Source: Trypanosoma brucei
Taxonomy: Eukaryota
Reading direction: 5' to 3'
NCBI GenBank assembly: GCA_000002445.1
Contig: CP000067.1
Span: forward strand, 320,001 to 384,000
Length of the DNA: 64,000 nucleotides
Part shown: in pieces, positions 29,237 to 45,201 of the stretch
How the letters are laid out: the number at the start of each line of letters is the position of its first letter
Numbering within the stretch: position 1 is the stretch's first letter
The notes under the pieces: model-generated
Databases searched by the model: none
What the model was told of the DNA's origin: nothing
What the model saw: the letters and a program-made list of their open reading frames with translations, nothing else
Position numbers and translations under genes: made by a program

Positions 29237-31327
29237 TTATTTTGCTATGATGTTGACAAGCGGGGCGTCCTCGTCGTTTTCGTCTCCCGAAGCAGCCCCA
29301 GCTCCGTTCTTTCCTCTGGACCCGCGTTTTGAGCCACCCCGTTTCTTTTGCTTCTTCTTCTTGCCGCTTGCTTTCTTGCCTGTTTTCGCGGCTGATTTTT
29401 TGCTTCGGGTTTTTTTCTTCTTTGTACCACTCGCCTTCTTAGTGCTGCGCTTGGCACCACCCGACTTTTTGCTTTTTCCATTCGCCGTCTTCTTTCCACT
29501 CTTGTTCTTTGTACTGGATGCGCTCCCTGTCAAAGCAGTTGGGATGACCCGCTTCTTAACGAACTCCTCATATGCCTGTATTTCCTCCGGTGTGCCATAG
29601 GTATTGAGCCACTGGTATTGAACCTCATCTTGCTCCTTGAAGAATTGTGTCGCTGCCTCCTCTACGGAGCCGTTCTCGCTCACGCTTTGGGCGCGCCTGA
29701 GGGTATCGATGGTCCTCTTTATGTCTTCTAATTTGTACTTGATCGATTGAACGGACACGTGGAAAGTCTTGGGGATGGAGCGCTGATGGTTACAGAGCTT
29801 AGCGACTTCCGTATTTGCCTTGTTGAAATAGACGAGTTTGTCCGAAAGGGAGGCCTTCGGGTCCACTGGCTTTTCCCTAAACCACTCATCCAATGTGATG
29901 GAAGCGTTGTAGGTACGGAACACCTTTGCAGACAGGTCCTTCAGAAAGCTCTTCAGGTAGTTGTTTAGGGTCGTGGGTGTCACTTTTCTGAAAATTTCGC
30001 TGTCCGTTCTTTTTATGAAACTCCCCAGAAGCTTGTAAACTTCTGGCAGGACGGTGACCTCATTCACGTACCGGATGGAGTCTTTACCCAGAAAGTCAAA
30101 ACGCACCACATTATCTGGCCTTAACTCGATGTGCTCCTTGCGAAGGGAGCAACAACCCACAGTATCCGCTTCCTCTTCGCCCTTTTCATGACCTACACGC
30201 AACGCCAATTTATCGATAAAGTATGTTGCTACAGCACGCTGCCTCTCCATCTCATCCGTCGACGAAAAATCCTTCGTATAGGATTCCCGTATATCATCAA
30301 TGTGATTTTTCAGCTCGCGCGCTGTCTCGAATTTGGCATAATCCGACTGACCTTTCAGAGTTGAAGACGGCGCAAGCATCACATACTTGCACTGACCAAT
30401 GGTGGGTTCGTACCACATCGCCAACCACGTCACATTCTGATCGTGCACAACCCCCTTCCACTTGTGCCCCGCTGGTGCTTGGGGAATCGGGGCTTCTTTG
30501 CCTATATTTAACACGACATCCTCGGGAAGTATACGTTTCTTCAGTTTCCCTCGCATTGGGTGCTCTCCACGTCCACGGAATAAACCGGGTGGCTCCACGC
30601 GGAAGTTGGCCACCTGCTCCTTCTTGCCATTCCATATACACCATTTATACGGCTCCGCCTCCTCGTCAGCAATACGTTTCAGTTCCTTTTTCTCTTCTCT
30701 TGTGCGACTCTTGCGCTTCTCCACCTCCCTCTGATGCCATTCATATATAGCACTGAAATCACATAACTCGAGGCAGCGAATGGGATGCTTCCGTTTATCG
30801 AGTATCTCCCTCCAGCTCTGAAAAAAGTTCCTACGGAACACTTCGTTGCGGTAATAGTCGTGCTCTCGTAGGACAGCGAACATTGTCGCCACCTCTTCCT
30901 CCTCTGGGGTCATCTCAAACTTTTGCTGATTGTAAAGAATAGGAATGCCATGCGGAACATATGCCGGGGGAAATAACACACCGTTGTGCAACAGTGTGTC
31001 CCACCGCTTTTCCCCCTTTTTTGTTGTTGTCAGAGTCCCCTGCGTCCACCATTCAGTTTCCCCATCGTTTCCACCCCCCTCCTCGTTTGCCAGCAAAGCC
31101 GCCTTATTTTCATCGCCTTCTCTTTTCACAGCCCCTTTTGCGGGCCCCATCCCCGCGGCAACCATCTCCAGCTCATTTTCTTCTTCCTTTATGACAACTT
31201 TCTTGATCTTTTTCTCCGTCATATCTTCTTTCTTAACTACAACTCTCTTCCCATTAACCTCTTCATCTTTTACGGCAACCTTCTTTCCCTTCCCTTCACC
31301 ACTCTTCGGCTTCTGTGCCTTACCCAT
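29237..31327 (-). CDS. TOP1B-L: DNA topoisomerase IB, large (DNA-binding core) subunit of the kinetoplastid heterodimeric enzyme, ~696 aa
   Basis: The ORF-track start is GTG, immediately followed by ATG. Conserved topo I core: WWTQGTLTTTKKGEKRWDTLLHNGVLFPPAY and later DTVGCCSLRKEHIELRPDNVVRFDFLGKDSIRY. The long C-terminal Lys-rich tail carries no catalytic Tyr region, consistent with the split large/small-subunit enzyme of trypanosomatids. Confidence 0.9.
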   Translation of the reverse strand: MGKAQKPKSGEGKGKKVAVKDEEVNGKRVVVKKEDMTEKKIKKVVIKEEENELEMVAAGMGPAKGAVKREGDENKAALLANEEGGGNDGETEWWTQGTLTTTKKGEKRWDTLLHNGVLFPPAYVPHGIPILYNQQKFEMTPEEEEVATMFAVLREHDYYRNEVFRRNFFQSWREILDKRKHPIRCLELCDFSAIYEWHQREVEKRKSRTREEKKELKRIADEEAEPYKWCIWNGKKEQVANFRVEPPGLFRGRGEHPMRGKLKKRILPEDVVLNIGKEAPIPQAPAGHKWKGVVHDQNVTWLAMWYEPTIGQCKYVMLAPSSTLKGQSDYAKFETARELKNHIDDIRESYTKDFSSTDEMERQRAVATYFIDKLALRVGHEKGEEEADTVGCCSLRKEHIELRPDNVVRFDFLGKDSIRYVNEVTVLPEVYKLLGSFIKRTDSEIFRKVTPTTLNNYLKSFLKDLSAKVFRTYNASITLDEWFREKPVDPKASLSDKLVYFNKANTEVAKLCNHQRSIPKTFHVSVQSIKYKLEDIKRTIDTLRRAQSVSENGSVEEAATQFFKEQDEVQYQWLNTYGTPEEIQAYEEFVKKRVIPTALTGSASSTKNKSGKKTANGKSKKSGGAKRSTKKASGTKKKKTRSKKSAAKTGKKASGKKKKQKKRGGSKRGSRGKNGAGAASGDENDEDAPLVNIIAK

Positions 31328-31703
31328 CACACCGAAAGGGGGAGAGATATTATGGCCACTGTGTTTTTCTCTTTATTTCTGTGTGTCTGCACCTATCCCC
31401 ACGGCAAGTTGCGTCGCAGGTGGCAGCGTAAAAACACTAACGTGTGACTTCAAAGGAAAAAAAAAAGCGACAGAGCTACCAGCCGAGTGGAAAGTGGTAG
31501 ACGGAAATGGGAATGATTAAAGAGTATGATAGAGGCAGCACCTTACAAAAAAAAAAAAAGAAGCGTATAACACACAAAGGCACAACGTCGCCCGGTCTAA
31601 TCCCAGCCGCCAGCGCACACCGCAGAGCCCCCGACGAGAGCACGTCTCCTGAGCTAATCCCTTTTCCTCCTTCCACCAAAGAGACCGAAGGGAAACTAAG
31701 ATG

Positions 31704-31779
31704 TTATTATTATTATTATTATTATTTTTTAACTCATGTACTTAATGTGCTCCAGTTTGAACAACAACAACAACAACAA
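31704..31779. repeat. (TTA)n and (CAA)n trinucleotide repeats in the TOP1B-L/CPSF73 intergenic region
   Basis: ttattattattattattatt at ~31704-31726 and caacaacaacaacaacaa at ~31760-31779. Confidence 0.8.
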
Positions 31780-31970
31780 TTCCTCCTCTCCCAACCCTCT
31801 ACAGGAAACCTTCAGTGTACGATTTTGAGGGAGCGTGGATAGCAGAAGAGAAAAATAAAATGGTCCGTTCCAGAGTGCTTGGAGATGATACAAGTCAACT
31901 TGCGAGTGACGGAACCACAGTCAATTCAGGCAACCATCAGATGTCACCAGTTTTTCCCCATACTCTCTGT

Positions 31971-34283
31971 CTATGCGCCCTCGTCAATGGGAGCCGGTTC
32001 AGCACCGTGAATCATACCACAGTCACACCAGCCCTGGTCAACAGGAATTGGGAAGAGAGTCAGGTATACTCGCTTCAGGACGGTCTTCAACCGCTCCACC
32101 TCGGTGGATGAGTAACTTGACTTTGTGTTTCCCTGCAGGTCAATTTCAATACAGCCCGTAATGGTGGCGTGTTGTCCATCCTCTAACTCCACGGTGCACA
32201 CCCCGGTGCCAAGGTTTGTGACAACAGATGGGTAGAACTGTGACATCATGTGGTGAAAGCATTTTAGTCGAAAAAGACGATCATTTCCACAAACGTCCAC
32301 CGGAAGCGCATCTGCGCTGCTTGCTGCATGTTCTTGTTGCATGAGCTTAATGAGAGCAATGCAAGTGACATCCGCAAGGAGGTCGTTGTGATGGCTCGAG
32401 GTCCAATTCACCGTGACTGTCGTCTGAGATCTCGTGCTCTGCTGAACATCAACCCAAACGTCTTTGGAAACCGTAATCTGCGTTGCATTTCCCGCACACT
32501 CCTGCTCCTGACCACCTCCTATGGCATTGGCTGCATCCCCTCCTTCCTGCTTCTGCTGTTCATGCGGGGTTACGTCACTGAACATTTGACTCTGCGCGAA
32601 GTACCGCTTCAGCATTTCGAGCACTTCGTGCGGAGACTTGTACCTTGGAAGCGGCAGAACTATGGCCTGTTGGATTTGCGCCACGTCCAGATCCGTGAAG
32701 TGCGGAATATCGGTTGGATGCACAACGCTATATGTGTGATGTCCGGACATTAGTAACACCCCGCTAATGAATTCGCCATCGCGAGGTGGGTTACGGGCCA
32801 ACGTACCTAATACCTTGGCTGTTCGTTGCACACTAAAGGGTATACGAATGGCTTCTTGGTTTTTGGTGGCGTATACCTGCACCCCGCGGTCGGCAAAGTC
32901 TTGTTGGAGTTTGTTTTTCAGTTGCCCCATTGCCCCAACGTTGCCATGTACAAGAATGACATGTTTTGTCTTGGGTAGAGCTTGGATGAAGTCGCGTGTC
33001 TGTCTGCCATCGGAGTGAGCGGAGAAGGAGACGGATTGAATTGTTCTCATACGGAGAGGCAGGACCTTTCCGTCTGGCTTGGTGATTTCCCTTGGTTTTG
33101 AGAGAATGTCCTTGGCGATGGTCCCGTCAACGCAATAGCCAGCAACAATAATGCCATTCCGTTTGTCACCGCACCACCTTTCAAACAGTTCAAGTGATAT
33201 ACCCGACTGTAGCATACCAGGAGAAGCCAACACAACGCATGGCCCGGTGTCTTCGAAGGAGCGAGTGTCGAGAAGTGACTGAATATACTTAAACACGAAA
33301 GGGTTTCGGTGATTTTCGTGTTGCTTCTTCACTCGGTCATTCATAGCACTGACAAATGTCTGGTACAGCTTCATGCATCGCTGGGCTAGCGAAGATGCGT
33401 AGTAGATGGGTATGTGTTGCAACTCCTTGTGTGCTTCCCAATATTCTTCAAGTATGAGAAGAAGTTCTTGCGCGCGGCCCAGAGCAAATACTGGTACCAA
33501 ACATCGTCCACCCCCCTTCACGACATCGTGCACCCACGTCGTAAACAGGGATTCCCGCTCTTCACGTGACTCCAGTTCGCGTATACCATTTGTACTCTCT
33601 GCAATGAGAATATCGGGCGAGTACGGTGGAACTTCAGCTCCCAGAAGGTGACGGTCGGGAACACGTGAGAAGTCACCTGTATATAATAGTTTCATCCCCG
33701 CAATATCAACCATGAAAAGTGCAGCCCCAAGAACGTGACCGGCATTGAAAGGCTGGAAATGAATACCGTTCACTGTCACCTCTTCGTGGTATTCCACTGT
33801 TTCAATCTTTTCAATGGTACTTTGCAGCCACTCGTTGTTCACAATGTCCTCGGCACTTGCACCAATGCGCAGGAAATCGTTCATCACCATTTTATAGAAA
33901 GCTTTTGTTGCGCTCGTCATGAAGATGCGCCCCCTGAAGGAAGTCTGCTCGCAAAAGTACGGCAGTGCTCCACAGTGATCGAGGTGAAAGTGAGTGATGA
34001 GCACAAGGTCAATTTCGTCACAGCGGATGCTGTCAAAAAATGGAAGAGAATCTAATCCGCTCTTCGCCGGGTGGTTCCCGCAGTCCAGCATAACGGAGCG
34101 GCCCTTGTAGCGGACAACCACACACGAACGGCCGACTTCCCCGCCGCTGCCGATCGGTAGAATCTCCACCTCGTCTGTGGATGGCGGCGCGGCGGCCGGT
34201 TGAGGTCCCGCTGCAAGATGGCGTGGGGAGGAGCTGTCAAGCACATGTACGCCGGGTGCGCTGTACGCCGCGTGTGAAAACAT
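31971..34283 (-). CDS. CPSF3: Cleavage and polyadenylation specificity factor 73-kDa subunit (CPSF3; metallo-beta-lactamase/beta-CASP endonuclease), 770 aa
   Basis: ATG start. Contains the MBL motif LITHFHLDHCGALPYF, the beta-CASP region and the CPSF73 C-terminal domain. The N-terminal core LPIGSGGEVGRSCVVVRYKGRSVMLDCG is highly conserved. Confidence 0.92.
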   Translation of the reverse strand: MFSHAAYSAPGVHVLDSSSPRHLAAGPQPAAAPPSTDEVEILPIGSGGEVGRSCVVVRYKGRSVMLDCGNHPAKSGLDSLPFFDSIRCDEIDLVLITHFHLDHCGALPYFCEQTSFRGRIFMTSATKAFYKMVMNDFLRIGASAEDIVNNEWLQSTIEKIETVEYHEEVTVNGIHFQPFNAGHVLGAALFMVDIAGMKLLYTGDFSRVPDRHLLGAEVPPYSPDILIAESTNGIRELESREERESLFTTWVHDVVKGGGRCLVPVFALGRAQELLLILEEYWEAHKELQHIPIYYASSLAQRCMKLYQTFVSAMNDRVKKQHENHRNPFVFKYIQSLLDTRSFEDTGPCVVLASPGMLQSGISLELFERWCGDKRNGIIVAGYCVDGTIAKDILSKPREITKPDGKVLPLRMRTIQSVSFSAHSDGRQTRDFIQALPKTKHVILVHGNVGAMGQLKNKLQQDFADRGVQVYATKNQEAIRIPFSVQRTAKVLGTLARNPPRDGEFISGVLLMSGHHTYSVVHPTDIPHFTDLDVAQIQQAIVLPLPRYKSPHEVLEMLKRYFAQSQMFSDVTPHEQQKQEGGDAANAIGGGQEQECAGNATQITVSKDVWVDVQQSTRSQTTVTVNWTSSHHNDLLADVTCIALIKLMQQEHAASSADALPVDVCGNDRLFRLKCFHHMMSQFYPSVVTNLGTGVCTVELEDGQHATITGCIEIDLQGNTKSSYSSTEVERLKTVLKRVYLTLFPIPVDQGWCDCGMIHGAEPAPIDEGA

Positions 34284-34576
34284 GTCCGCTACCGCGTATC
34301 TCAGAAGCTAAGCGTTACTACGTGCACTAATGGAAAAACAACAATGTCAACAATGAAGTAGCGAAAGCGACGATAGTGAAGGAACTTGGGCACCCCGATG
34401 GAGAGGGTCATATTGACAAAGTCATATATATATATAGAGAGAGAGGTAGTGGAGTAATGAAGAAGAGTTGAATGCCATGGTGCACAAGTTGAGTGTCTTT
34501 TCACGGGTTTGCACCCTCGCGCGAAGATGTATGGAATTCGCACCAATTCTGTTGCGTCAGCTTCAGCGTTTCGCCT

Positions 34577-36010
34577 CTACCCCGTGTCGTTCCGCTTGGT
34601 GGAAGTGTAAATGGCGCGTTGTACAGCCATTGATGCGTACGGTTTCCCCTGGAATTCCTCTAAAACACACCTCTTCAGCGACAGAAGTGCGTTAACCTTT
34701 TTCTCGATGGTGACGGTTGACGGAACCGTGCACGCACGTAAATGCAACGGTGCTTTTGTTTCCATGCTAGTCACCTTCATGTAGACATCATCTGCTACAA
34801 CACAACTTCGAAGCCTCCTTGCCCCATTTCTGGCCTGAGCGACGGTGTCGCAGTAATTAGATGTCGCAATCGCGGACTGTTCCCCAGTTTGATTCGCCGT
34901 TCTTTGAACCGATAATATCATATCCAGGGACCTTTCTGTGTATTCATGACCGACGTAAATTAGGACATCGTCCGTGTGTATAATATCACCGGTTGCGGGG
35001 TGCACCCATGTGCGATTATTGTTGAAAATGTCCACAGTTTCGAGTGTTTCATCGACTGATGTAGCCTCAAAGAGGGCACCGCAACCCCCACAAAATACGC
35101 AGTCACCTGTGAAGAGTGCAAGCCGCTGCGGCTCACCTTCCTTTGGTAGCGCGTCTCCAACCAAAAACATAACGGACCCGCCGGTGTGGCCCGGGGTCGA
35201 CAGCACCACGACTTTGGCACCACCACCTGCAACAACCAGCTCATCACTACCCTTAATTAATTTATTGCAGGCGTGCGGCCTGTCCACCTCTGAGCCGTAG
35301 ATGTTAAGCTCCGGGGAGAGTAGCGCGCGGCACCTCTCACTACTGCATTGTGACAGGGCACGCATCTCCATGTTTCCACCGGCGTGGTCCCAATGCTTGT
35401 GGGTGGTGAGGATGTCTGTTATCATAAAATCAATTTGCGTGAGGTTCCGCACAACTTCCAGCATATTAAGTACAAGCGTTGGATCAGCAGGATCAACTAC
35501 GGCGCACCGCTTCGTTTTGCAACTCAGAATAAAGTAGGCGTAATTATCCAGTAGCACTGGCACCGGCATAACAAACACACCGTCATAGCATCCTTCCCGG
35601 CACTTCTCCCCAAGATGCTTCAGGTCCACCGTCCCGCCACCCCGCGTATGAAACTCGGAACCTTCCAACACATGAGGAGGGAAGGGACATCGGGTGATGA
35701 TGTTCCCGCTAAGACACCGCACGCCGTGGCGGTAGTCCGAATGCGGGACAGAGTAACGTTTGTGTATGAGGAATCGCAGCCACCTATAACCAACGAGCTC
35801 AGAACAGTAAAGATTGTACAAACACACGAAGAGATTCAACCTGAACCAAACAGGGGGGAAGTACGCGTTGGCTGGTATGAGTCCCAGCAAGCAAGTTGCA
35901 GCGGTGCCGATGACAAGTTGCGTAGCGCTCGCAATAGACGTAACGTAGAGAAAAATAGTGACCGCAACCATGAGAGACGGCCCGACGAACTGCTTCACGC
36001 TTTCCATCAT
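34577..36010 (-). CDS. Hydroxyacylglutathione hydrolase (glyoxalase II)-like metallo-beta-lactamase with an N-terminal extension of 2-3 predicted TM helices, 477 aa
   Basis: ATG start. TTHKHWDHAGGN matches the GLO2 THxHxDH motif (human HAGH: TTHHHWDHAGGN), with downstream GHTxGS and HEYT elements. The N-terminal ~110 aa is hydrophobic (LMVAVTIFLYVTSIASA..., LNLFVCLYNLYC). Confidence 0.7.
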   Translation of the reverse strand: MMESVKQFVGPSLMVAVTIFLYVTSIASATQLVIGTAATCLLGLIPANAYFPPVWFRLNLFVCLYNLYCSELVGYRWLRFLIHKRYSVPHSDYRHGVRCLSGNIITRCPFPPHVLEGSEFHTRGGGTVDLKHLGEKCREGCYDGVFVMPVPVLLDNYAYFILSCKTKRCAVVDPADPTLVLNMLEVVRNLTQIDFMITDILTTHKHWDHAGGNMEMRALSQCSSERCRALLSPELNIYGSEVDRPHACNKLIKGSDELVVAGGGAKVVVLSTPGHTGGSVMFLVGDALPKEGEPQRLALFTGDCVFCGGCGALFEATSVDETLETVDIFNNNRTWVHPATGDIIHTDDVLIYVGHEYTERSLDMILSVQRTANQTGEQSAIATSNYCDTVAQARNGARRLRSCVVADDVYMKVTSMETKAPLHLRACTVPSTVTIEKKVNALLSLKRCVLEEFQGKPYASMAVQRAIYTSTKRNDTG

Positions 36011-36651
36011 TGCCGGAGACTAAGCGGAGAGTTGGCACCTTCCCCCTTACTACTACTACGTTTAACTGCGGGTGCTTATCAAAGAACAAACTGTGAGTGC
36101 GGGAGGCGTGTGAATAACCAACTGGCAAAGGTCCAGTCGTGCATTCATGTTGTTCCCCCCTCTCTTTTTGCTGTCGATAAGGGCAATTCTTCCGCCCACC
36201 GACCACTAATACTCAAAGGCAGCGCCTCCGCCTCATCTGCGGGTCATTACAACTGTGCCACTGACCACTGGAACGTTCATCGGTCGTATAGCATTATGCT
36301 CGAGATAAATCTAAAACGAAAAAACACCTGAAAAATAACTGATTCCTCCCTAGCTTGTCTATCACATCCCCCTCCACCACTTGAACCTAAACAACCAGTT
36401 GAAAAAAAAACAACTTCCTCAACTAAATAATGCGTTAAAAGGACCACAAACCCATTTTCCTTTACTCGTCGTCTTCGTGTTACGTTTCCCCCCTTGCAAA
36501 ATGCGCCCCATTGACTTAGTACCTCTTTCCACCTCTCTACCCGGGCTCAGCGGCCTTCGCGAACGTGAAAAAACGAACCAACTGGCTATCACACACAAGG
36601 AGGATCCTGCTATGTTTTCCTTTATCCTCCCTGCCTTATTCACTTTTTTTT

Positions 36652-37533
36652 TTACATTTTAGAACTGGGAAGCACAAGGATACGCTGCCGTCCCTTCCAT
36701 TCAAACTGGGGCTGCAGCTTCACTCGCTTGGCAATGACACCGTGCTCGATGCAAACAAACTCCTTGTACCCGTCTGCCGGGAGGTCCTTCAACTTCTTTG
36801 ACTTCTCCACGTGAGGGTTCCATACGACGACGTCTGGAAGGTTTTCTCCTGAAACATGGACCGTGTGCCCCTTCATCGCGTCTACCAGAAGCACGGCACA
36901 AGCCTGGTTGAAGTATGTGCGGTCCGTTTCCTTCTTTATTATCCACAACCGCCTTGGCGGCAGCACACCCTGGTGGGGAGCCATGTTGTTAACATATGAG
37001 GTCATGTTCACCCCCTCCACCACGGTTTTCTCCACATTTCCCACCGCGAAGTATGTGTGAAACGCGAAGGTAAACTCCGCCACGCTCGTGGGATGCTGAT
37101 TCAATATTTCCATCTGCAGGTCTAAATGACTGTTGCTGAATGTGATTGTGTAGAGAAGTGCGACTGTTTCGGTTTCGGCCGACGGTGCCTCCGCAATGGG
37201 GGCCTCAGCAATCATGCCGGAGTCGTGTCCAAGCAAATCGCGAAGAGGCACGTTGAGTGTGAAGGAAGCAGAACCATTTGTTACTTCCTTCACAGCCCAC
37301 ATACGAACGCGCGCGAAGCCATGTGGCGGCAGCGGTCCCATGTTTCCAAACTGCGGAAAAACAATTGGGACACCACCGCGTATGGGAATTCCCTTCTCAT
37401 AGACGGCTTTGGAGCTGGTGTACAAGAGTTCTGTGCCCTCCTTGTTGCGCCAGTTGGTGAGGTGGGCGCCCTGCAAATGAACTAAGATGGAGGAACCGTC
37501 ATCGTTTCGTGCCACAATAGGAGATTTCGCCAT
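36652..37533 (-). CDS. Glucose-6-phosphate 1-epimerase (aldose-1-epimerase family, YeaD-like), ~293 aa
   Basis: The ORF-track start is TTG; the first ATG gives MAKSPIVARNDDGSS.... Diagnostic motif GIPIRGGVPIVFPQFG. Length matches the family. Confidence 0.85.
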   Translation of the reverse strand: MAKSPIVARNDDGSSILVHLQGAHLTNWRNKEGTELLYTSSKAVYEKGIPIRGGVPIVFPQFGNMGPLPPHGFARVRMWAVKEVTNGSASFTLNVPLRDLLGHDSGMIAEAPIAEAPSAETETVALLYTITFSNSHLDLQMEILNQHPTSVAEFTFAFHTYFAVGNVEKTVVEGVNMTSYVNNMAPHQGVLPPRRLWIIKKETDRTYFNQACAVLLVDAMKGHTVHVSGENLPDVVVWNPHVEKSKKLKDLPADGYKEFVCIEHGVIAKRVKLQPQFEWKGRQRILVLPSSKM

Positions 37534-37983
37534 ATGTTCTTCTCTCCTCTTTTGTGTATAGTTCGGTGGTTTATATAAACGATAATAAAACAAGACAGTG
37601 ATGATGCCGATAACTGAAACTGACCAATAATTTTGATGACTGCTAGTTGTTTTTTTTTTTTACCTTTTCGATATGCTTCGCTGTGGGGAATAGGGATGAA
37701 GCAAGAAGGAAATGTATGCGTAAGGACAGGAAGAGAAGAAAACAATATACGTCAAGCAATATTTGCACAAACACCAGAAAAGGTTGGACCTTAAGAGACC
37801 CGCTCCAAAGGTAACGACAGGCAGGTACGCAGGATAAAATAAACCACCGTTAATATATTAAACCCAGTTCCCCCAACACTAAAGCGGTCACGGCTCCTCG
37901 CCTACTCACAGGTGACAGTACCAACTGACTACAACACCGTCAGTCACTGCATTTGTTCTCTTCAATCTTCAGACAAGGAAGAA

Positions 37984-43218: not shown

Positions 43219-43819
43219 GATGAAGTAGGCGAATAAATTTCCACGTGTGTGTCTCGTTAACGAGATCTCCTCTCTCCTCGTATTAATGCACTGTTAAGGC
43301 TGTGCTTCTTATATATGCCTCCCACCCTAATTACAGTTATCTCAGGAAATCTGGCGGGAAGGCACAAAAAGGAAATAACATGGAAATGACTGAATGTGAA
43401 GCGCACGGTGGTAGTAATGGTAAAGCAGCAATACAAAAATAATTTTCAGCTACCAGCGGTACAAAGCAATACGCAAAACCAATTTGAAGAAGCCATCTAA
43501 ACGAATTCACAAAAGGAAAAAAAATGATGAAGTCAAAGAGGTGAGAAACAATACCTCTCTGCATGTCGGGTTAGGGTTAGGGTGCGCGGGTGCACACATT
43601 ATAATAGCATATAAAACAAATATTTCTGTGAGGAGTGTATAGTGGGTGGAGCGTGTTTATGATGACAATAATAAAGAAATAAGATATATGTGTCCACAGC
43701 AAGAGTGGAGGTCCGCCGCTAGTGGGTTAGGGTTAGGGACAGAGGTTACTCCTAGTTCTTCCTCGCCTTTCGCTTACTGATGTGAGTTCATGCTTGCCAG
43801 CAAAATGTTACGCAGGTCC

Positions 43820-45201
43820 TCATTTTCCTCCTGTGCGCCACTTTAAGAACTTTTCCAGCTCTTCCGAAGTGGTAGTGGGCGGGAATTCACGGAGCGCGCA
43901 CTCAAAATTCTCCCTACACACTGCCGGTACGTGTAGTGCCGCCGTAGGCACAGTTTCAATTGGTCGCGCTCCTTCTTCATCTTCGTCGCAAAGTACGTAC
44001 TGCGGGCTGCCGCTGCTCGACTTTTGTGAAACCAATTCATTGTCAGTCGGGGCGCTGTTACTCACAGTAGTGGTGGAAGGTCTGATAGGCTTTGCATACC
44101 CCGCCATTGAAATCTTCTGTATAGGTTCCATGACGGCACGTCGCGTTATGCGGCAAATATCTGATGCTGAGTATCCCTCAGTGGAGTTGACGAGCCACTG
44201 GATGTCCTCCTCACCAAGTTCACTTGGCACATGCCGTAGTTCCTCAACAATAAGTCGGAACCGCGCCGCCGAGGGCGGAAGCCCCACAAAGACGAGTTGG
44301 TCAAAACGCCGAAGAATAGCGCTGTCAAGTCCCCAAGGAATGTTGGTGGCTGCTATAAGCGTGATTCCATCCACATGCGATTTTTGCATGCGCAGAAGCA
44401 GTTCAGTTTTGACTCGCCGAGATGCTTCGCTCTCCCCGGCCCCGCCCCGTACGCCACCTATCGCGTCGATCTCGTCAAGAAATAGAACGCAGCGGGGGAA
44501 GGAGGCGGCCACCTCGAAAACGCGCCGCACCTGTCGCTCCGAATCCCCAATCCACTTGCTCAAAATGTCTGCTGATGACACGGTAAGCAGTGGTGCTGCA
44601 TACTCAGCCGCGGCCGCCGCAGCAAGCAGCGTCTTGCCTGTACCTGGTGGGCCGTAAAGGAGAATATGCCGGGGCGGGTGCCGTTTACCTTGAAACAGAT
44701 GAGGGAATCGTAGTGGGAGCACCGTTGCTCGTTTCAAGGCAGCAATGGCGTCCTCACAGCCACTCACGTCAACCCACCGGACCCTGTTGGTATTTCCATG
44801 CTCTTTGAGCCCATCGACACTTCCCGGTGGGTACAAAATGGCGGCTCCAAGCTCCTCCACTTCCTGTTCACAGCTGGAGACTGATGGTTTTGCCTCCATC
44901 TCGTACTGCTGAAGTTGCTGGTGTTGTCGGTGGCTAGAGGGAAAGGTTCCGTCAGGTGGAAGATCAATAACTCTGAGAAGGGTACGGGAAACGTGGGCGT
45001 AAATGGCGCAACGATGCGGCGAATCGTCATATGCTTGCATTAAAGAGGAACACTGTAGTATGGCGCGCAGTATTCCTTGGAGGCGAATGATTGCGTCCTC
45101 ACCGGCATTTCGGAAGTGACTGTATTGCAGAAGCAGTTCGCGCGCCTCCGTCACTAACTGTATGGCCTCTTCTGCTTTCTTCAGGTTGAAGGAATCTTCC
45201 A
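43820..45201 (-). CDS. Meiotic-clade AAA ATPase (katanin p60 / spastin / fidgetin-like), ~460 aa
   Basis: The ORF-track start is TTG; the first ATG gives MEDSFNLKKAEEAIQ..., an MIT-like helical N-terminus. AAA core [53 protein letters not shown], Walker B VLFLDEIDAIGG, and C-terminal helix typical of the katanin/Vps4 clade. Confidence 0.8.

What the first reader, a model, noticed from the sequence alone, without database searches (positions are those of the whole stretch)
34577..36010. Glyoxalase-II-like hydrolase with an N-terminal multi-TM anchor
The catalytic core matches hydroxyacylglutathione hydrolase (TTHKHWDHAGGN). Canonical trypanosome GLO2 is a ~295-aa soluble trypanothione-thioester hydrolase, and T. 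brucei lacks GLO1. A second membrane-anchored GLO2 paralogue of 477 aa, with a ~110-aa hydrophobic N-terminus, suggests a different substrate or compartment (mitochondrial, ER or glycosomal membrane). It sits immediately downstream of CPSF73, another MBL-fold gene.
Basis: partly seen in the sequence, partly recalled or inferred. Interest (0 to 1): 0.55.

Follow-up and report, generated by a model that had tools for sequence, protein, structure and literature searches.

The report
Membrane-tethered glyoxalase-II-like enzyme of trypanosomes
This is the already annotated second "glyoxalase II" gene of Trypanosoma brucei (glx2-2): a real, conserved enzyme with a hydrophobic N-terminal tether, probably related to the animal protein PNKD, and with an unknown true substrate.

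Summary
The ORF is real: 34577-36010 on the minus strand, 477 aa, with the TTHKHWDHAGGN motif. It is T. brucei Tb927.4.1350, already annotated as glyoxalase II "glx2-2". The catalytic domain is closest to GLO2 by sequence and by fold, and all seven metal ligands are intact. It scores below the GloB equivalog cut-off and lacks the glutathione-binding basic residues.

The N-terminal extension is 146 aa and is not a mis-called start. It is conserved across Trypanosoma, Leishmania and relatives, with 25 invariant residues. The internal Met148 is Val or Ile in the other 15 aligned species.

"Multi-TM, ~110 aa hydrophobic" is overstated. Only residues ~9-47 form two short, moderately hydrophobic helices. 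Residues 50-146 are a conserved linker modelled as packing on the enzyme.

The linker motif (F..LY.LYC...GY...PHS) and the overall architecture resemble metazoan PNKD. PNKD is a membrane-associated GLO2 homologue with negligible lactoylglutathione hydrolase activity. The N-terminal homology is supported by shuffle-controlled profile tests but is not significant database-wide, and the catalytic-domain tree is unresolved.

The gene lies upstream of CPSF73 in the direction of transcription, not downstream. That order is the same in Leishmania, and the two proteins share no specific similarity.

Verdict: a known gene and a new member of a known kind. Interest is modest.

The parts
34577..36010 (-). 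Complete CDS of GLX2-2 (Tb927.4.1350), 477 aa plus stop codon
   Evidence: ORF list. 99% identical to the T. brucei equiperdum 'glyoxalase II' cluster representative. Gene id from the neighbours Tb927.4.1330/1340/1360 in PMC4689576.
35870..35986 (-). Residues 9-47: two adjacent moderately hydrophobic helices. Candidate membrane hairpin, or signal peptide/anchor plus one TM.
   Evidence: Translation. KD 19-residue windows of 1.76 and 1.63. AF2 helices 9-23 and 29-42. G43, P46 and N48 at the end of the segment are invariant.
35717..35845 (-). Residues 56-98: conserved juxtamembrane motif F..LF..LY.LYCS...GY....L.H......PHSDYR.G.R
   Evidence: Translation. Invariant F61, Y65, Y68, C69, G74, Y75, H83, H90, S91, D92, Y93, R94, G96, R98. 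AF2 helix 60-68, a break, then helix 71-82. This is the stretch that aligns to metazoan PNKD N-termini.
35573..35716 (-). Residues 99-146: conserved non-hydrophobic linker (F120, R123, G125, G126, G144 invariant) with high model confidence
   Evidence: Alignments A1 and A3. pLDDT block means of 70-94 for residues 91-150. That it packs on the catalytic domain is inferred from this confidence; coordinates could not be inspected.
34940..35572 (-). Residues 147-357: metallo-beta-lactamase catalytic domain of the GLO2 type. Metal ligands are H204, H206, D208, H209, H275, D303 and H355.
   Evidence: Pfam and NCBIfam scans. PDB sequence alignments. Foldseek. Ligand mapping to human H54/H56/D58/H59/H110/D134/H173.
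35372..35407 (-). TTHKHWDHAGGN (HxHxDH metal-binding motif), residues 202-213
   Evidence: Translation. Invariant in all aligned homologues.
34580..34939 (-). Residues 358-477: diverged HAGH_C-like helical domain, with CTVPST...E...N.LL and a family-specific C-terminal IY.S..R motif in place of the R249/K252 glutathione-binding motif
   Evidence: Pfam HAGH_C matches 12 of 14 family members, but not the T. brucei protein itself. The Foldseek alignment to 1qh3 spans 323 columns. C-terminal alignment block.
36011..36651 (-). Upstream intergenic region with pyrimidine tracts followed by AG (about 36385-36415 and 36310-36345): candidate trans-splice acceptor region upstream of the first ATG
   Evidence: Sequence read. 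Function is inferred; no RNA data were available.

Best explanation
The ORF is the T. brucei gene Tb927.4.1350 (glx2-2). It is a genuine 477-aa protein conserved across kinetoplastids, in three parts.

1. An N-terminal pair of short, moderately hydrophobic helices (about residues 9-47). These most likely tether the protein to an endomembrane or organelle membrane.
2. A ~95-aa conserved linker that carries the F..LY.LYC...GY...PHSDYR motif.
3. A catalytically intact binuclear-metal hydrolase domain of the glyoxalase II type.

Basic residues follow the second hydrophobic helix, so the positive-inside rule places the enzyme domain on the cytosolic face.

The enzyme most likely hydrolyses a thiol ester. 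That ester is probably not S-D-lactoyl-glutathione, and possibly not the lactoyl-trypanothione handled by the soluble GLO2. The enzyme lacks the basic glutathione-binding residues, and only one of the two T. brucei GLO2 genes is reported to show GLO2 activity.

In architecture, and probably by descent, it is the kinetoplastid counterpart of metazoan PNKD. PNKD is a GLO2 homologue with a unique N-terminal extension whose long isoform is membrane-associated; every PNKD retrieved here starts with a strongly hydrophobic segment. It also barely hydrolyses lactoylglutathione, and its physiological substrate is unknown.

Shown here: gene identity, conservation of the extension, the intact metal site, the loss of the GSH-binding residues, and the synteny.
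Inferred: membrane insertion, topology, substrate class, and common origin with PNKD.
For: Identity
- 99% identical to the T. brucei 'glyoxalase II' cluster representative.
- The neighbouring genes match Tb927.4.1330-1360.

The extension is real
- Sixteen orthologues of 469-542 aa align end to end.
- The extension has 25 invariant positions over 12 species.
- Met148 is V or I in the other 15 aligned species.
- A profile of the extension alone, searched against 1.84 billion representatives, found 16 proteins at E <= 1e-3. Nearly all of those inspected are N-extended GLO2-like proteins. The weakest hit is a 1607-aa protein that was not examined.

Enzyme
- The best sequence and fold matches are GLO2.
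- All seven metal ligands are present in every homologue.
- K143 is replaced by Ala, N179 by Ser or Leu, and the R249/K252 motif by IY.S..R.

Anchor
- Two hydrophobic segments, KD 1.76 and 1.63.
- AF2 helices 9-23 and 29-42.
- The protein was detected by 3 peptides in organelle-enriched fractions. It is absent from the mitochondrial reference set and from the ATOM40 importome (Peikert 2017 Suppl. Data 8).

PNKD link
- The kinetoplastid-only N-terminal HMM scores 97 metazoan PNKD N-termini at a median of 11.3 bits. The 99.9th percentile of 19,400 shuffles is 7.5 bits and their maximum is 10.8 bits. The alignments inspected all fall on the same motif.
- hhalign gives P = 0.0066 on that motif.
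- The reciprocal PNKD HMM scores Trypanosoma at 6.5-15.8 bits, Trypanoplasma at 16.8, Acrasis at 15.7 and P0055 at 25.6. The shuffle maximum is 9.6.
- Both AF2 models show the same helix-break-helix followed by (P/G)HS.
- PNKD-L has a unique 117-aa N-terminus, is membrane-associated and has extremely low SLG hydrolase activity (PMC3098736).
- Only one of the two T. brucei GLO2 genes showed GLO2 activity (PMC9686547).
Against: - Membrane insertion was not tested. The hydrophobic segments are marginal: summed transfer energy is +1.4 and +2.8, the modelled helices are only 14-15 residues long, and the Leishmaniinae segments score lower, KD 1.1-1.6.
- No localisation data could be retrieved. The TrypTag and hyperLOPIT supplements as held do not contain the gene id.
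- The PNKD link is not significant at whole-database scale. PNKD N-termini get E of about 1 to 1e3 with Z = 1.8e9, even after three iterations. None was among the 16 hits.
- The reciprocal scores for Leishmaniinae are only 4.4-8.5 bits.
- The NJ tree of the catalytic domain leaves the backbone unresolved, with bootstraps of 1-36%.
- PNKD keeps the R..KD C-terminal motif that this family has lost.
- The statement about lack of activity comes second-hand from a review. Wendler 2009 itself could not be read.
Confidence: 0.6

Rival explanations
1. The hydrophobic N-terminus is an artefact of a mis-called start. The true protein would be a ~330-aa soluble GLO2 starting at Met148 (VFV-M-PVPVLLDNY), equivalent to residue ~3 of human GLO2.
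For: Met148 sits exactly where canonical GLO2 proteins begin (alignment).
Against: - Met148 is Val or Ile in the other 15 aligned orthologues.
- The 146 upstream residues carry 25 invariant positions across Trypanosoma, Leishmania, Leptomonas, Novymonas and others.
- The extension is found attached to the same enzyme in more distant euglenozoan-like sequences.
- Residues 91-150 are modelled with pLDDT block means of 70-94.
Confidence: 0.03
2. The extension is a mitochondrial or other organellar import signal. The protein would then be a matrix-located GLO2 isoform, like yeast Glo4, Arabidopsis GLX2-5 or mitochondrial human HAGH.
For: - Many eukaryotes have an N-terminally extended mitochondrial GLO2. 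An Acrasis 'mitochondrial hydroxyacyl-glutathione hydrolase' is among the hits.
- The protein was detected in an organelle-enriched fraction.
Against: - The extension is long (146 aa), conserved in sequence, begins with hydrophobic rather than amphipathic basic segments, and is partly folded onto the enzyme.
Confidence: 0.1
3. It is a catalytically silent pseudo-enzyme or scaffold. It could even be the 'PNKD-like' protein reported as required for mitochondrial translation in T. brucei (Tyc et al. 2017), rather than a thioesterase.
For: - A review states that only one of the two T. brucei GLO2 genes showed GLO2 activity.
- PNKD has non-enzymatic roles in the literature.
- A T. brucei 'PNKD-like' protein exists in the literature (cited in PMC11785013), and GLX2-2 is a much closer PNKD relative (E 6e-21) than mt-SAF20.
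Against: - All seven metal ligands, Y175 and the TVPS...N.L substrate-lid motif are invariant over very deep divergence, which argues for retained catalysis.
- The only MBL-fold protein in the solved T. brucei mt-SSU assemblosome is mt-SAF20 (6sg9_FL). It does not match GLX2-2 by sequence even at E <= 10, shares 16% identity in Foldseek, and is itself weakly PNKD-like.
- GLX2-2 is not in the mitochondrial reference set.
Confidence: 0.12
4. The hydrophobic start is a cleaved signal peptide (IASA|TQ fits the -3/-1 rule). The protein would then be secretory-pathway luminal, or a type I membrane protein.
For: Residues 9-29 look like an n/h/c signal-peptide layout, and Leishmania has AYA|A at the same place. 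PNKD-L is N-terminally cleaved (PMC3098736).
Against: - No predictor was available.
- A second hydrophobic segment follows at once and is followed by basic residues. Even with cleavage, this would put the enzyme domain in the cytosol.
- This reading is largely a topological variant of the best explanation.
Confidence: 0.15

Closest known systems
Metazoan PNKD (MR-1; 'probable hydrolase/thioesterase PNKD')
   Same: - A GLO2-like MBL domain with THKHWDH and all metal ligands.
- The domain is preceded by an N-terminal hydrophobic anchor and a juxtamembrane helix-break-helix carrying F..(I/L).Y.LY(T/C)...GY...(G/P)HS.
- PNKD-L is membrane-associated and has negligible lactoylglutathione hydrolase activity (PMC3098736). 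This parallels the report that only one of the two T. brucei GLO2 genes is active.
   Different: - PNKD has one strongly hydrophobic TM (KD 2.2-2.8) and a 55-80-aa extension. The trypanosome protein has two weaker segments and a 146-aa extension.
- PNKD keeps R143 and the C-terminal R..KD motif. The kinetoplastid family has A143 and IY.S..R.
- Sister relationship of the catalytic domains is unresolved.
- The N-terminal similarity is not significant database-wide.
Soluble trypanothione-dependent glyoxalase II of kinetoplastids (T. brucei GLX2-1; L. infantum GLO2, PDB 2p18)
   Same: Same fold and metal site. THKHWDH motif. Lys143 replaced by Ala and Tyr145 by Phe. Same organisms and thiol milieu.
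   Different: - The soluble enzyme has no N-terminal extension.
- Only 24% identity in the structural alignment.
- The two do not group robustly in the tree; bootstrap 20% for the node joining LiGLO2 to a 16-member group.
- GLX2-2 has extra insertions and a different C-terminus.
- The soluble enzyme is the one with documented lactoyl-trypanothione and general trypanothione thioesterase activity (PMC3107426).
Canonical hydroxyacylglutathione hydrolase (human HAGH 1qh3; TIGR03413 GSH_gloB)
   Same: Best sequence and fold match. Seven metal ligands and Tyr175 conserved.
   Different: - Scores 107 bits against the equivalog cut-off of 200.8.
- Lacks K143, N179 and R249/K252.
- Has the 146-aa N-terminal module and several insertions.
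mt-SAF20, the MBL-fold factor of the T. brucei mitoribosomal SSU assemblosome (PDB 6sg9/6sgb chain FL)
   Same: An MBL-fold protein of the same organism. Weakly similar to PNKD.
   Different: No detectable sequence similarity to GLX2-2. 16% identity and TM 0.29-0.41 in Foldseek. It is a different gene and a different compartment.

Membership tests
Glyoxalase II / hydroxyacylglutathione hydrolase (EC 3.1.2.6; TIGR03413, Pfam Lactamase_B + HAGH_C) | MBL fold with THxHxDH and the seven binuclear-site ligands (H54, H56, D58, H59, H110, D134, H173 in human numbering) | tested here: met
   H204, H206, D208, H209, H275, D303 and H355 are all present and invariant in homologues. The top Foldseek hits are GLO2 structures.
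Glyoxalase II / hydroxyacylglutathione hydrolase (EC 3.1.2.6; TIGR03413, Pfam Lactamase_B + HAGH_C) | Score above the curated equivalog cut-off | tested here: not met
   TIGR03413 scores 107.4 bits against a cut-off of 200.8. PRK10241 scores 69.7 against 421.
Glyoxalase II / hydroxyacylglutathione hydrolase (EC 3.1.2.6; TIGR03413, Pfam Lactamase_B + HAGH_C) | C-terminal helical HAGH_C domain | tested here: inconclusive
   Pfam HAGH_C is not detected in the T. brucei protein at E <= 1, but is detected in 12 of 14 family members. The fold alignment to 1qh3 spans 323 columns, and the CTVPST...E..N.LL motif is present.
Glyoxalase II / hydroxyacylglutathione hydrolase (EC 3.1.2.6; TIGR03413, Pfam Lactamase_B + HAGH_C) | Glutathione-binding residues K143, Y145, Y175, R249, K252 | tested here: not met
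   A312 and F314 replace K143 and Y145; Y357 is retained. The C-terminal R..K motif is replaced by IYTSTKR, and alignment there is uncertain.
Glyoxalase II / hydroxyacylglutathione hydrolase (EC 3.1.2.6; TIGR03413, Pfam Lactamase_B + HAGH_C) | Hydrolysis of S-D-lactoyl-thiol esters | not testable with these tools
   There is only a second-hand statement that one of the two T. brucei GLO2 genes showed activity (PMC9686547). The primary paper is not held.
Kinetoplastid trypanothione-specific GLO2 (GLX2-1 / LiGLO2 type) | Soluble enzyme without an N-terminal module, grouping with LiGLO2 | tested here: not met
   The protein is 477 aa with a 146-aa extension. It shows no supported grouping with LiGLO2 in the NJ tree, and the kinetoplastid-type anchored clade is separate with 100% bootstrap.
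Kinetoplastid trypanothione-specific GLO2 (GLX2-1 / LiGLO2 type) | Loss of basic GSH-carboxylate-binding residues (K143 to A) | tested here: met
   A312 aligns with Ala in LiGLO2. The same Ala also occurs in relatives of unknown taxonomy (P0036, P0044), so it is not proof of trypanothione use.
PNKD-type N-anchored GLO2-like hydrolases | Hydrophobic N-terminal anchor directly preceding a GLO2-like domain | tested here: met
   Two hydrophobic segments within residues 9-47. They are weaker than the single PNKD TM. Actual membrane insertion was not tested.
PNKD-type N-anchored GLO2-like hydrolases | Juxtamembrane motif F..(I/L).Y.LY(T/C/S)...GY ... (G/P)HS as helix-break-helix | tested here: met
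   The motif is present at residues 56-91. Cross-family HMM scores exceed the shuffles. hhalign P = 0.0066. The AF2 secondary structure matches. The match is not significant at whole-database scale.
PNKD-type N-anchored GLO2-like hydrolases | Catalytic domain monophyletic with metazoan PNKD | tested here: inconclusive
   In the NJ tree the PNKD clade has 97% support and the kinetoplastid-type clade 100%, but backbone bootstraps are 1-36%.
PNKD-type N-anchored GLO2-like hydrolases | C-terminal R..KD motif and R143, as in metazoan PNKD | tested here: not met
   The kinetoplastid family has A143 and IY.S..R.

The most novel reading that the evidence does not exclude
N-terminally anchored GLO2-like hydrolases may form one ancient eukaryotic family. 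Its members would be metazoan PNKD, the kinetoplastid GLX2-2 group, and similar proteins in Heterolobosea, haptophytes and uncharacterised protists. The shared juxtamembrane module would position a thioesterase at the cytosolic face of a membrane to act on a conserved, still unidentified thiol-ester substrate. The trypanosome orthologue sits in an organism without GLO1. It would then be a tractable model for finding the substrate that is missing in human paroxysmal dyskinesia.
Probability: 0.35. Interest if true: 0.55.

Novelty: new member of a known kind. Interest (0 to 1): 0.33.

Why it matters
T. brucei lacks glyoxalase I yet keeps two GLO2-like genes. The soluble one is regarded as a general trypanothione thioesterase. 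The anchored one has no assigned substrate or location.

If GLX2-2 really is the kinetoplastid counterpart of PNKD, two orphan enzymes become one question: what thiol ester is hydrolysed at a membrane surface? Trypanosome genetics could address it.

In practice the finding mainly corrects an annotation. 'Glyoxalase II' is probably not this protein's real activity. The gene also travels with the drug target CPSF3 in a resistance amplicon, most likely as a passenger.

Tried and rejected
- TrypTag (PMC9981465) and hyperLOPIT (PMC10361982) supplements: the gene id is absent from the stored, partly truncated files, so they give no localisation. The Msp1 outer-membrane paper's supplement has no entry either.
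- Primary papers Wendler 2009, Tyc 2017 and Zikova 2008 are not held. A search for 'mt-SAF20' found nothing.
- A kinetoplastid-only N-terminal profile against 1.84 billion representatives did not reach PNKD. Three local iterations brought in the P0035/36/38 group at E 3e-6 to 3e-5, but left PNKD at E >= 1 for that database size.
- The first bootstrap run with Biopython timed out. It was redone with numpy distances. The NJ backbone is unresolved, so it gives no statement on PNKD sisterhood.
- The AFDB Foldseek library was unavailable.
- Tandem duplication with CPSF73 is rejected (BLASTP E 0.27).
- Another MBL subfamily (ETHE1, AHL lactonase, B3 lactamase, LACTB2) is rejected. All score far below GLO2.
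- The exact window sequence is not in the protein collection. It differs at 5 residues from the cluster representative.
Full report
**What is in the sequence.** The ORF at 34577-36010 on the minus strand starts with ATG and encodes 477 aa. Residues 202-213 read TTHKHWDHAGGN (nt 35372-35407). All 24 ORFs of at least 250 aa in the window lie on the minus strand, apart from one overlapping shadow ORF. The region is therefore a single polycistronic unit. The local order of transcription is:
- aldose-1-epimerase-like gene (37593 to 36652),
- this gene (36010 to 34577),
- CPSF73 (34283 to 31971),
- topoisomerase IB large subunit (31330 to 29237).

**Identity of the gene.** The protein is 99% identical (472/477) to a T. 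brucei-group cluster named 'glyoxalase II'. The neighbouring genes match Tb927.4.1330 (TOP1B large subunit), Tb927.4.1340 (CPSF3) and Tb927.4.1360. [quoted passage not shown] A review citing Wendler et al. 2009 says T. brucei lacks Glo1 but has two Glo2 genes, 'only one' of which showed glyoxalase 2 activity (PMC9686547). I could not read the primary paper. The second GLO2-like gene is therefore already known and annotated.

**Catalytic domain.**
- Pfam finds Lactamase_B.
- The best NCBIfam model by far is hydroxyacylglutathione hydrolase TIGR03413. Its 107 bits fall below the equivalog cut-off of 200.8; the next family scores 31 bits.
- The best PDB sequence matches are human GLO2 (E 4e-21) and L. 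infantum GLO2 (E 1e-20).
- An AlphaFold2 model built on 16 orthologues (pLDDT 77.8, pTM 0.81) matches GLO2 structures best. 1qh3 gives E 1.7e-15 over 323 aligned columns.
- All seven metal ligands are present: H204, H206, D208, H209, H275, D303 and H355. They are invariant in every homologue aligned.
- The glutathione-binding residues of human GLO2 are not kept. K143 becomes Ala, as in the trypanothione-specific L. infantum enzyme. N179 becomes Ser or Leu. The C-terminal R249/K252 motif is replaced by a family-specific IY.S..R.
- Pfam HAGH_C is found in 12 of 14 family members, but not in the T. brucei protein itself.

No other MBL subfamily competes. The domain is a catalytically intact but divergent GLO2-type hydrolase.

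**Is the N-terminal extension real?** Yes.
- Sixteen orthologues from Trypanosoma, Leishmania, Porcisia, Novymonas, Leptomonas and unnamed relatives are 469-542 aa long and align from end to end.
- Within the 146 residues that precede the first MBL strand, 25 positions are invariant across 12 species.
- Met148, the only plausible alternative start, is Val or Ile in the other 15 aligned species.
- A profile of the extension alone, searched against 1.84 billion representative proteins, found only 16 proteins at E <= 1e-3. Nearly all of those inspected are N-extended GLO2-like proteins. The weakest hit is a 1607-aa protein that was not examined. As far as tested, the module occurs attached to this enzyme.

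- Two adjacent segments exceed the Kyte-Doolittle threshold in T. brucei: 12-30 (1.76) and 27-45 (1.63). Their summed transfer free energies are marginal, at +1.4 and +2.8.
- AlphaFold2 models them as short helices, 9-23 and 29-42.
- In the Leishmaniinae orthologues examined the corresponding segments score lower, KD 1.1-1.6.
- Residues 50-146 are not hydrophobic. They carry the motif FRLNLFVCLYNLYCSELVGYRWLRFLIHKRYSVPHSDYRHGVR. Block-mean pLDDT across residues 91-150 is 70-94, which suggests that they pack on the enzyme.
- Basic residues follow the second hydrophobic segment. On the positive-inside rule the catalytic domain would face the cytosol, whether the start is a hairpin or a cleaved signal (IASA|TQ) followed by one TM. 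This is inference.

**Localisation evidence.** In Peikert et al. 2017 (Suppl. Data 8) Tb927.4.1350 was identified by 3 peptides in organelle-enriched fractions. It is flagged neither in the mitochondrial reference set nor in the ATOM40-dependent importome. This argues weakly for organelle association and against matrix import. TrypTag and hyperLOPIT data could not be retrieved.

**Relation to PNKD: the shared layout.** Among the distant hits was a sponge 'probable hydrolase PNKD'. Every metazoan PNKD retrieved has:
- an N-terminal hydrophobic helix,
- then LFRIGY.LYTRTRLGY......L.KAR..YP.GHS,
- then the GLO2-like domain.

The kinetoplastid consensus is NIF..LYKLYCS...GYR.LR..LH.....PHS. TM-bearing GLO2-like proteins from Acrasis, Prymnesium and unnamed protists show versions of the same layout.

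**Relation to PNKD: the tests.**
- A kinetoplastid-only HMM of the extension scores 97 PNKD N-termini at a median of 11.3 bits. The 99.9th percentile of 19,400 composition-matched shuffles is 7.5 bits and their maximum is 10.8 bits. Reversed sequences reach at most 0.8 bits. The alignments inspected all fall on the motif.
- hhalign gives P = 0.0066.
- The reciprocal PNKD HMM scores Trypanosoma at 6.5-15.8 bits, Trypanoplasma at 16.8, Acrasis at 15.7 and P0055 at 25.6. Leishmaniinae reach only 4.4-8.5 bits. The shuffle maximum is 9.6.
- AlphaFold2 of Xenopus PNKD gives a TM helix at 3-20, then helix 32-44, a break, helix 46-62, and then GHS. T. brucei shows the same pattern: helix 60-68, a break, helix 71-82, then PHS.

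Against common origin:
- At whole-database scale the PNKD matches are not significant, even after iteration.
- A bootstrapped NJ tree of the catalytic domain supports the kinetoplastid-type clade (100%) and the PNKD clade (97%) but leaves their relationship unresolved.
- PNKD keeps R143 and the R..KD C-terminus.

I rate common origin of the N-terminal module at about 0.6.

The functional parallel holds either way. PNKD-L has a unique 117-aa N-terminus, is membrane-associated, and has 'extremely low' lactoylglutathione hydrolase activity that is not physiologically relevant (PMC3098736).

**A possible confusion in the literature.** A T. brucei 'PNKD-like' protein is reported as required for mitochondrial translation (Tyc et al. 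2017, cited in PMC11785013). I could not read that paper. The only MBL-fold protein in the solved mitoribosomal SSU assemblosome is mt-SAF20 (6sg9 chain FL). It is weakly similar to PNKD (E 3e-4). It does not match GLX2-2 by sequence even at E <= 10, and shares 16% identity in the fold search. I therefore think 'PNKD-like' refers to mt-SAF20 and not to this gene, but the gene id is unverified.

**Neighbourhood.** The order GLX2-2, CPSF73, TOP1B is the same in L. donovani. GLX2-2 and CPSF73 share no specific similarity beyond the superfamily motifs (BLASTP E 0.27). The adjacency is conserved synteny, not a duplication and not evidence of a functional link. A ~5.5-kb amplicon covering CPSF3 and glx2-2 was seen in an oxaborole-resistant line. 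From my own knowledge, CPSF3 was later shown to be the benzoxaborole target, so glx2-2 is most likely a passenger.

**Verdict.** The 'multi-TM, 110 aa hydrophobic' description and the gene order are wrong. The gene is a known, annotated paralogue. What this analysis adds:
- The extension is a conserved three-part module.
- The enzyme keeps its metal site but has lost the glutathione-binding residues.
- Its nearest architectural relative is PNKD rather than canonical GLO2.

The most likely mechanism is a membrane-tethered, cytosol-facing metallo-thioesterase that acts on a thiol ester other than lactoyl-glutathione. Membrane insertion, topology, substrate and PNKD homology remain inferences.

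Noticed in passing
window 31971-36010 (CPSF73 + GLX2-2): Published copy-number data describe a ~5.5-kb amplification containing exactly these two genes in an oxaborole-resistant T. brucei clone (PMC4689576). glx2-2 is probably a passenger of selection on CPSF3.
   Followed up: partly
window 1-64000: Every ORF of at least 250 aa is on the - strand, except one shadow ORF (43782-44657 +) that overlaps a longer - strand ORF. Cumulative GC skew falls across nearly the whole window. The whole window is one polycistronic transcription unit.
   Followed up: no
window 36652-37593 (-) and 29237-31330 (-): The ORF finder uses bacterial start codons. The aldose-1-epimerase-like ORF is listed from a TTG, but its first ATG is residue 21 (MAKSPIV). 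The TOP1B large-subunit ORF is listed from a GTG directly followed by ATG. The true eukaryotic CDSs are slightly shorter than listed.
   Followed up: no
window 34577-36010 (-): The encoded protein differs at 5 of 477 residues from the T. b. equiperdum cluster representative: T18I, T39A, E116K, V259I and T476R. Three of the five lie in the N-terminal extension. The exact sequence is not present in the 15-billion-protein collection.
   Followed up: partly
PDB 6sg9/6sgb/9hny chain FL (not in the window): T. brucei has another MBL-fold protein, mt-SAF20, in the mitoribosomal small-subunit assemblosome. It is weakly similar to PNKD but unrelated in sequence to GLX2-2. It is probably the 'PNKD-like' protein of Tyc et al. 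2017, though the gene id could not be checked.
   Followed up: partly
proteins P0045 (Acrasis kona), P0062 (Prymnesium parvum), P0044, P0055, P0035/36/38 (metagenomic): GLO2-like proteins with an N-terminal TM segment and a (Y/F).LY...G(Y) juxtamembrane stretch occur in Heterolobosea, a haptophyte and unassigned protists. This hints that the anchored form is widespread in eukaryotes. The taxonomy of the metagenomic members was not resolved.
   Followed up: partly
window 31507-31842 (+), intergenic between TOP1B and CPSF73: A mechanical 111-aa ORF contains YYYYYYY and QQQQQQ runs. This reflects simple trinucleotide repeats in the intergenic region and is not a gene.
   Followed up: no
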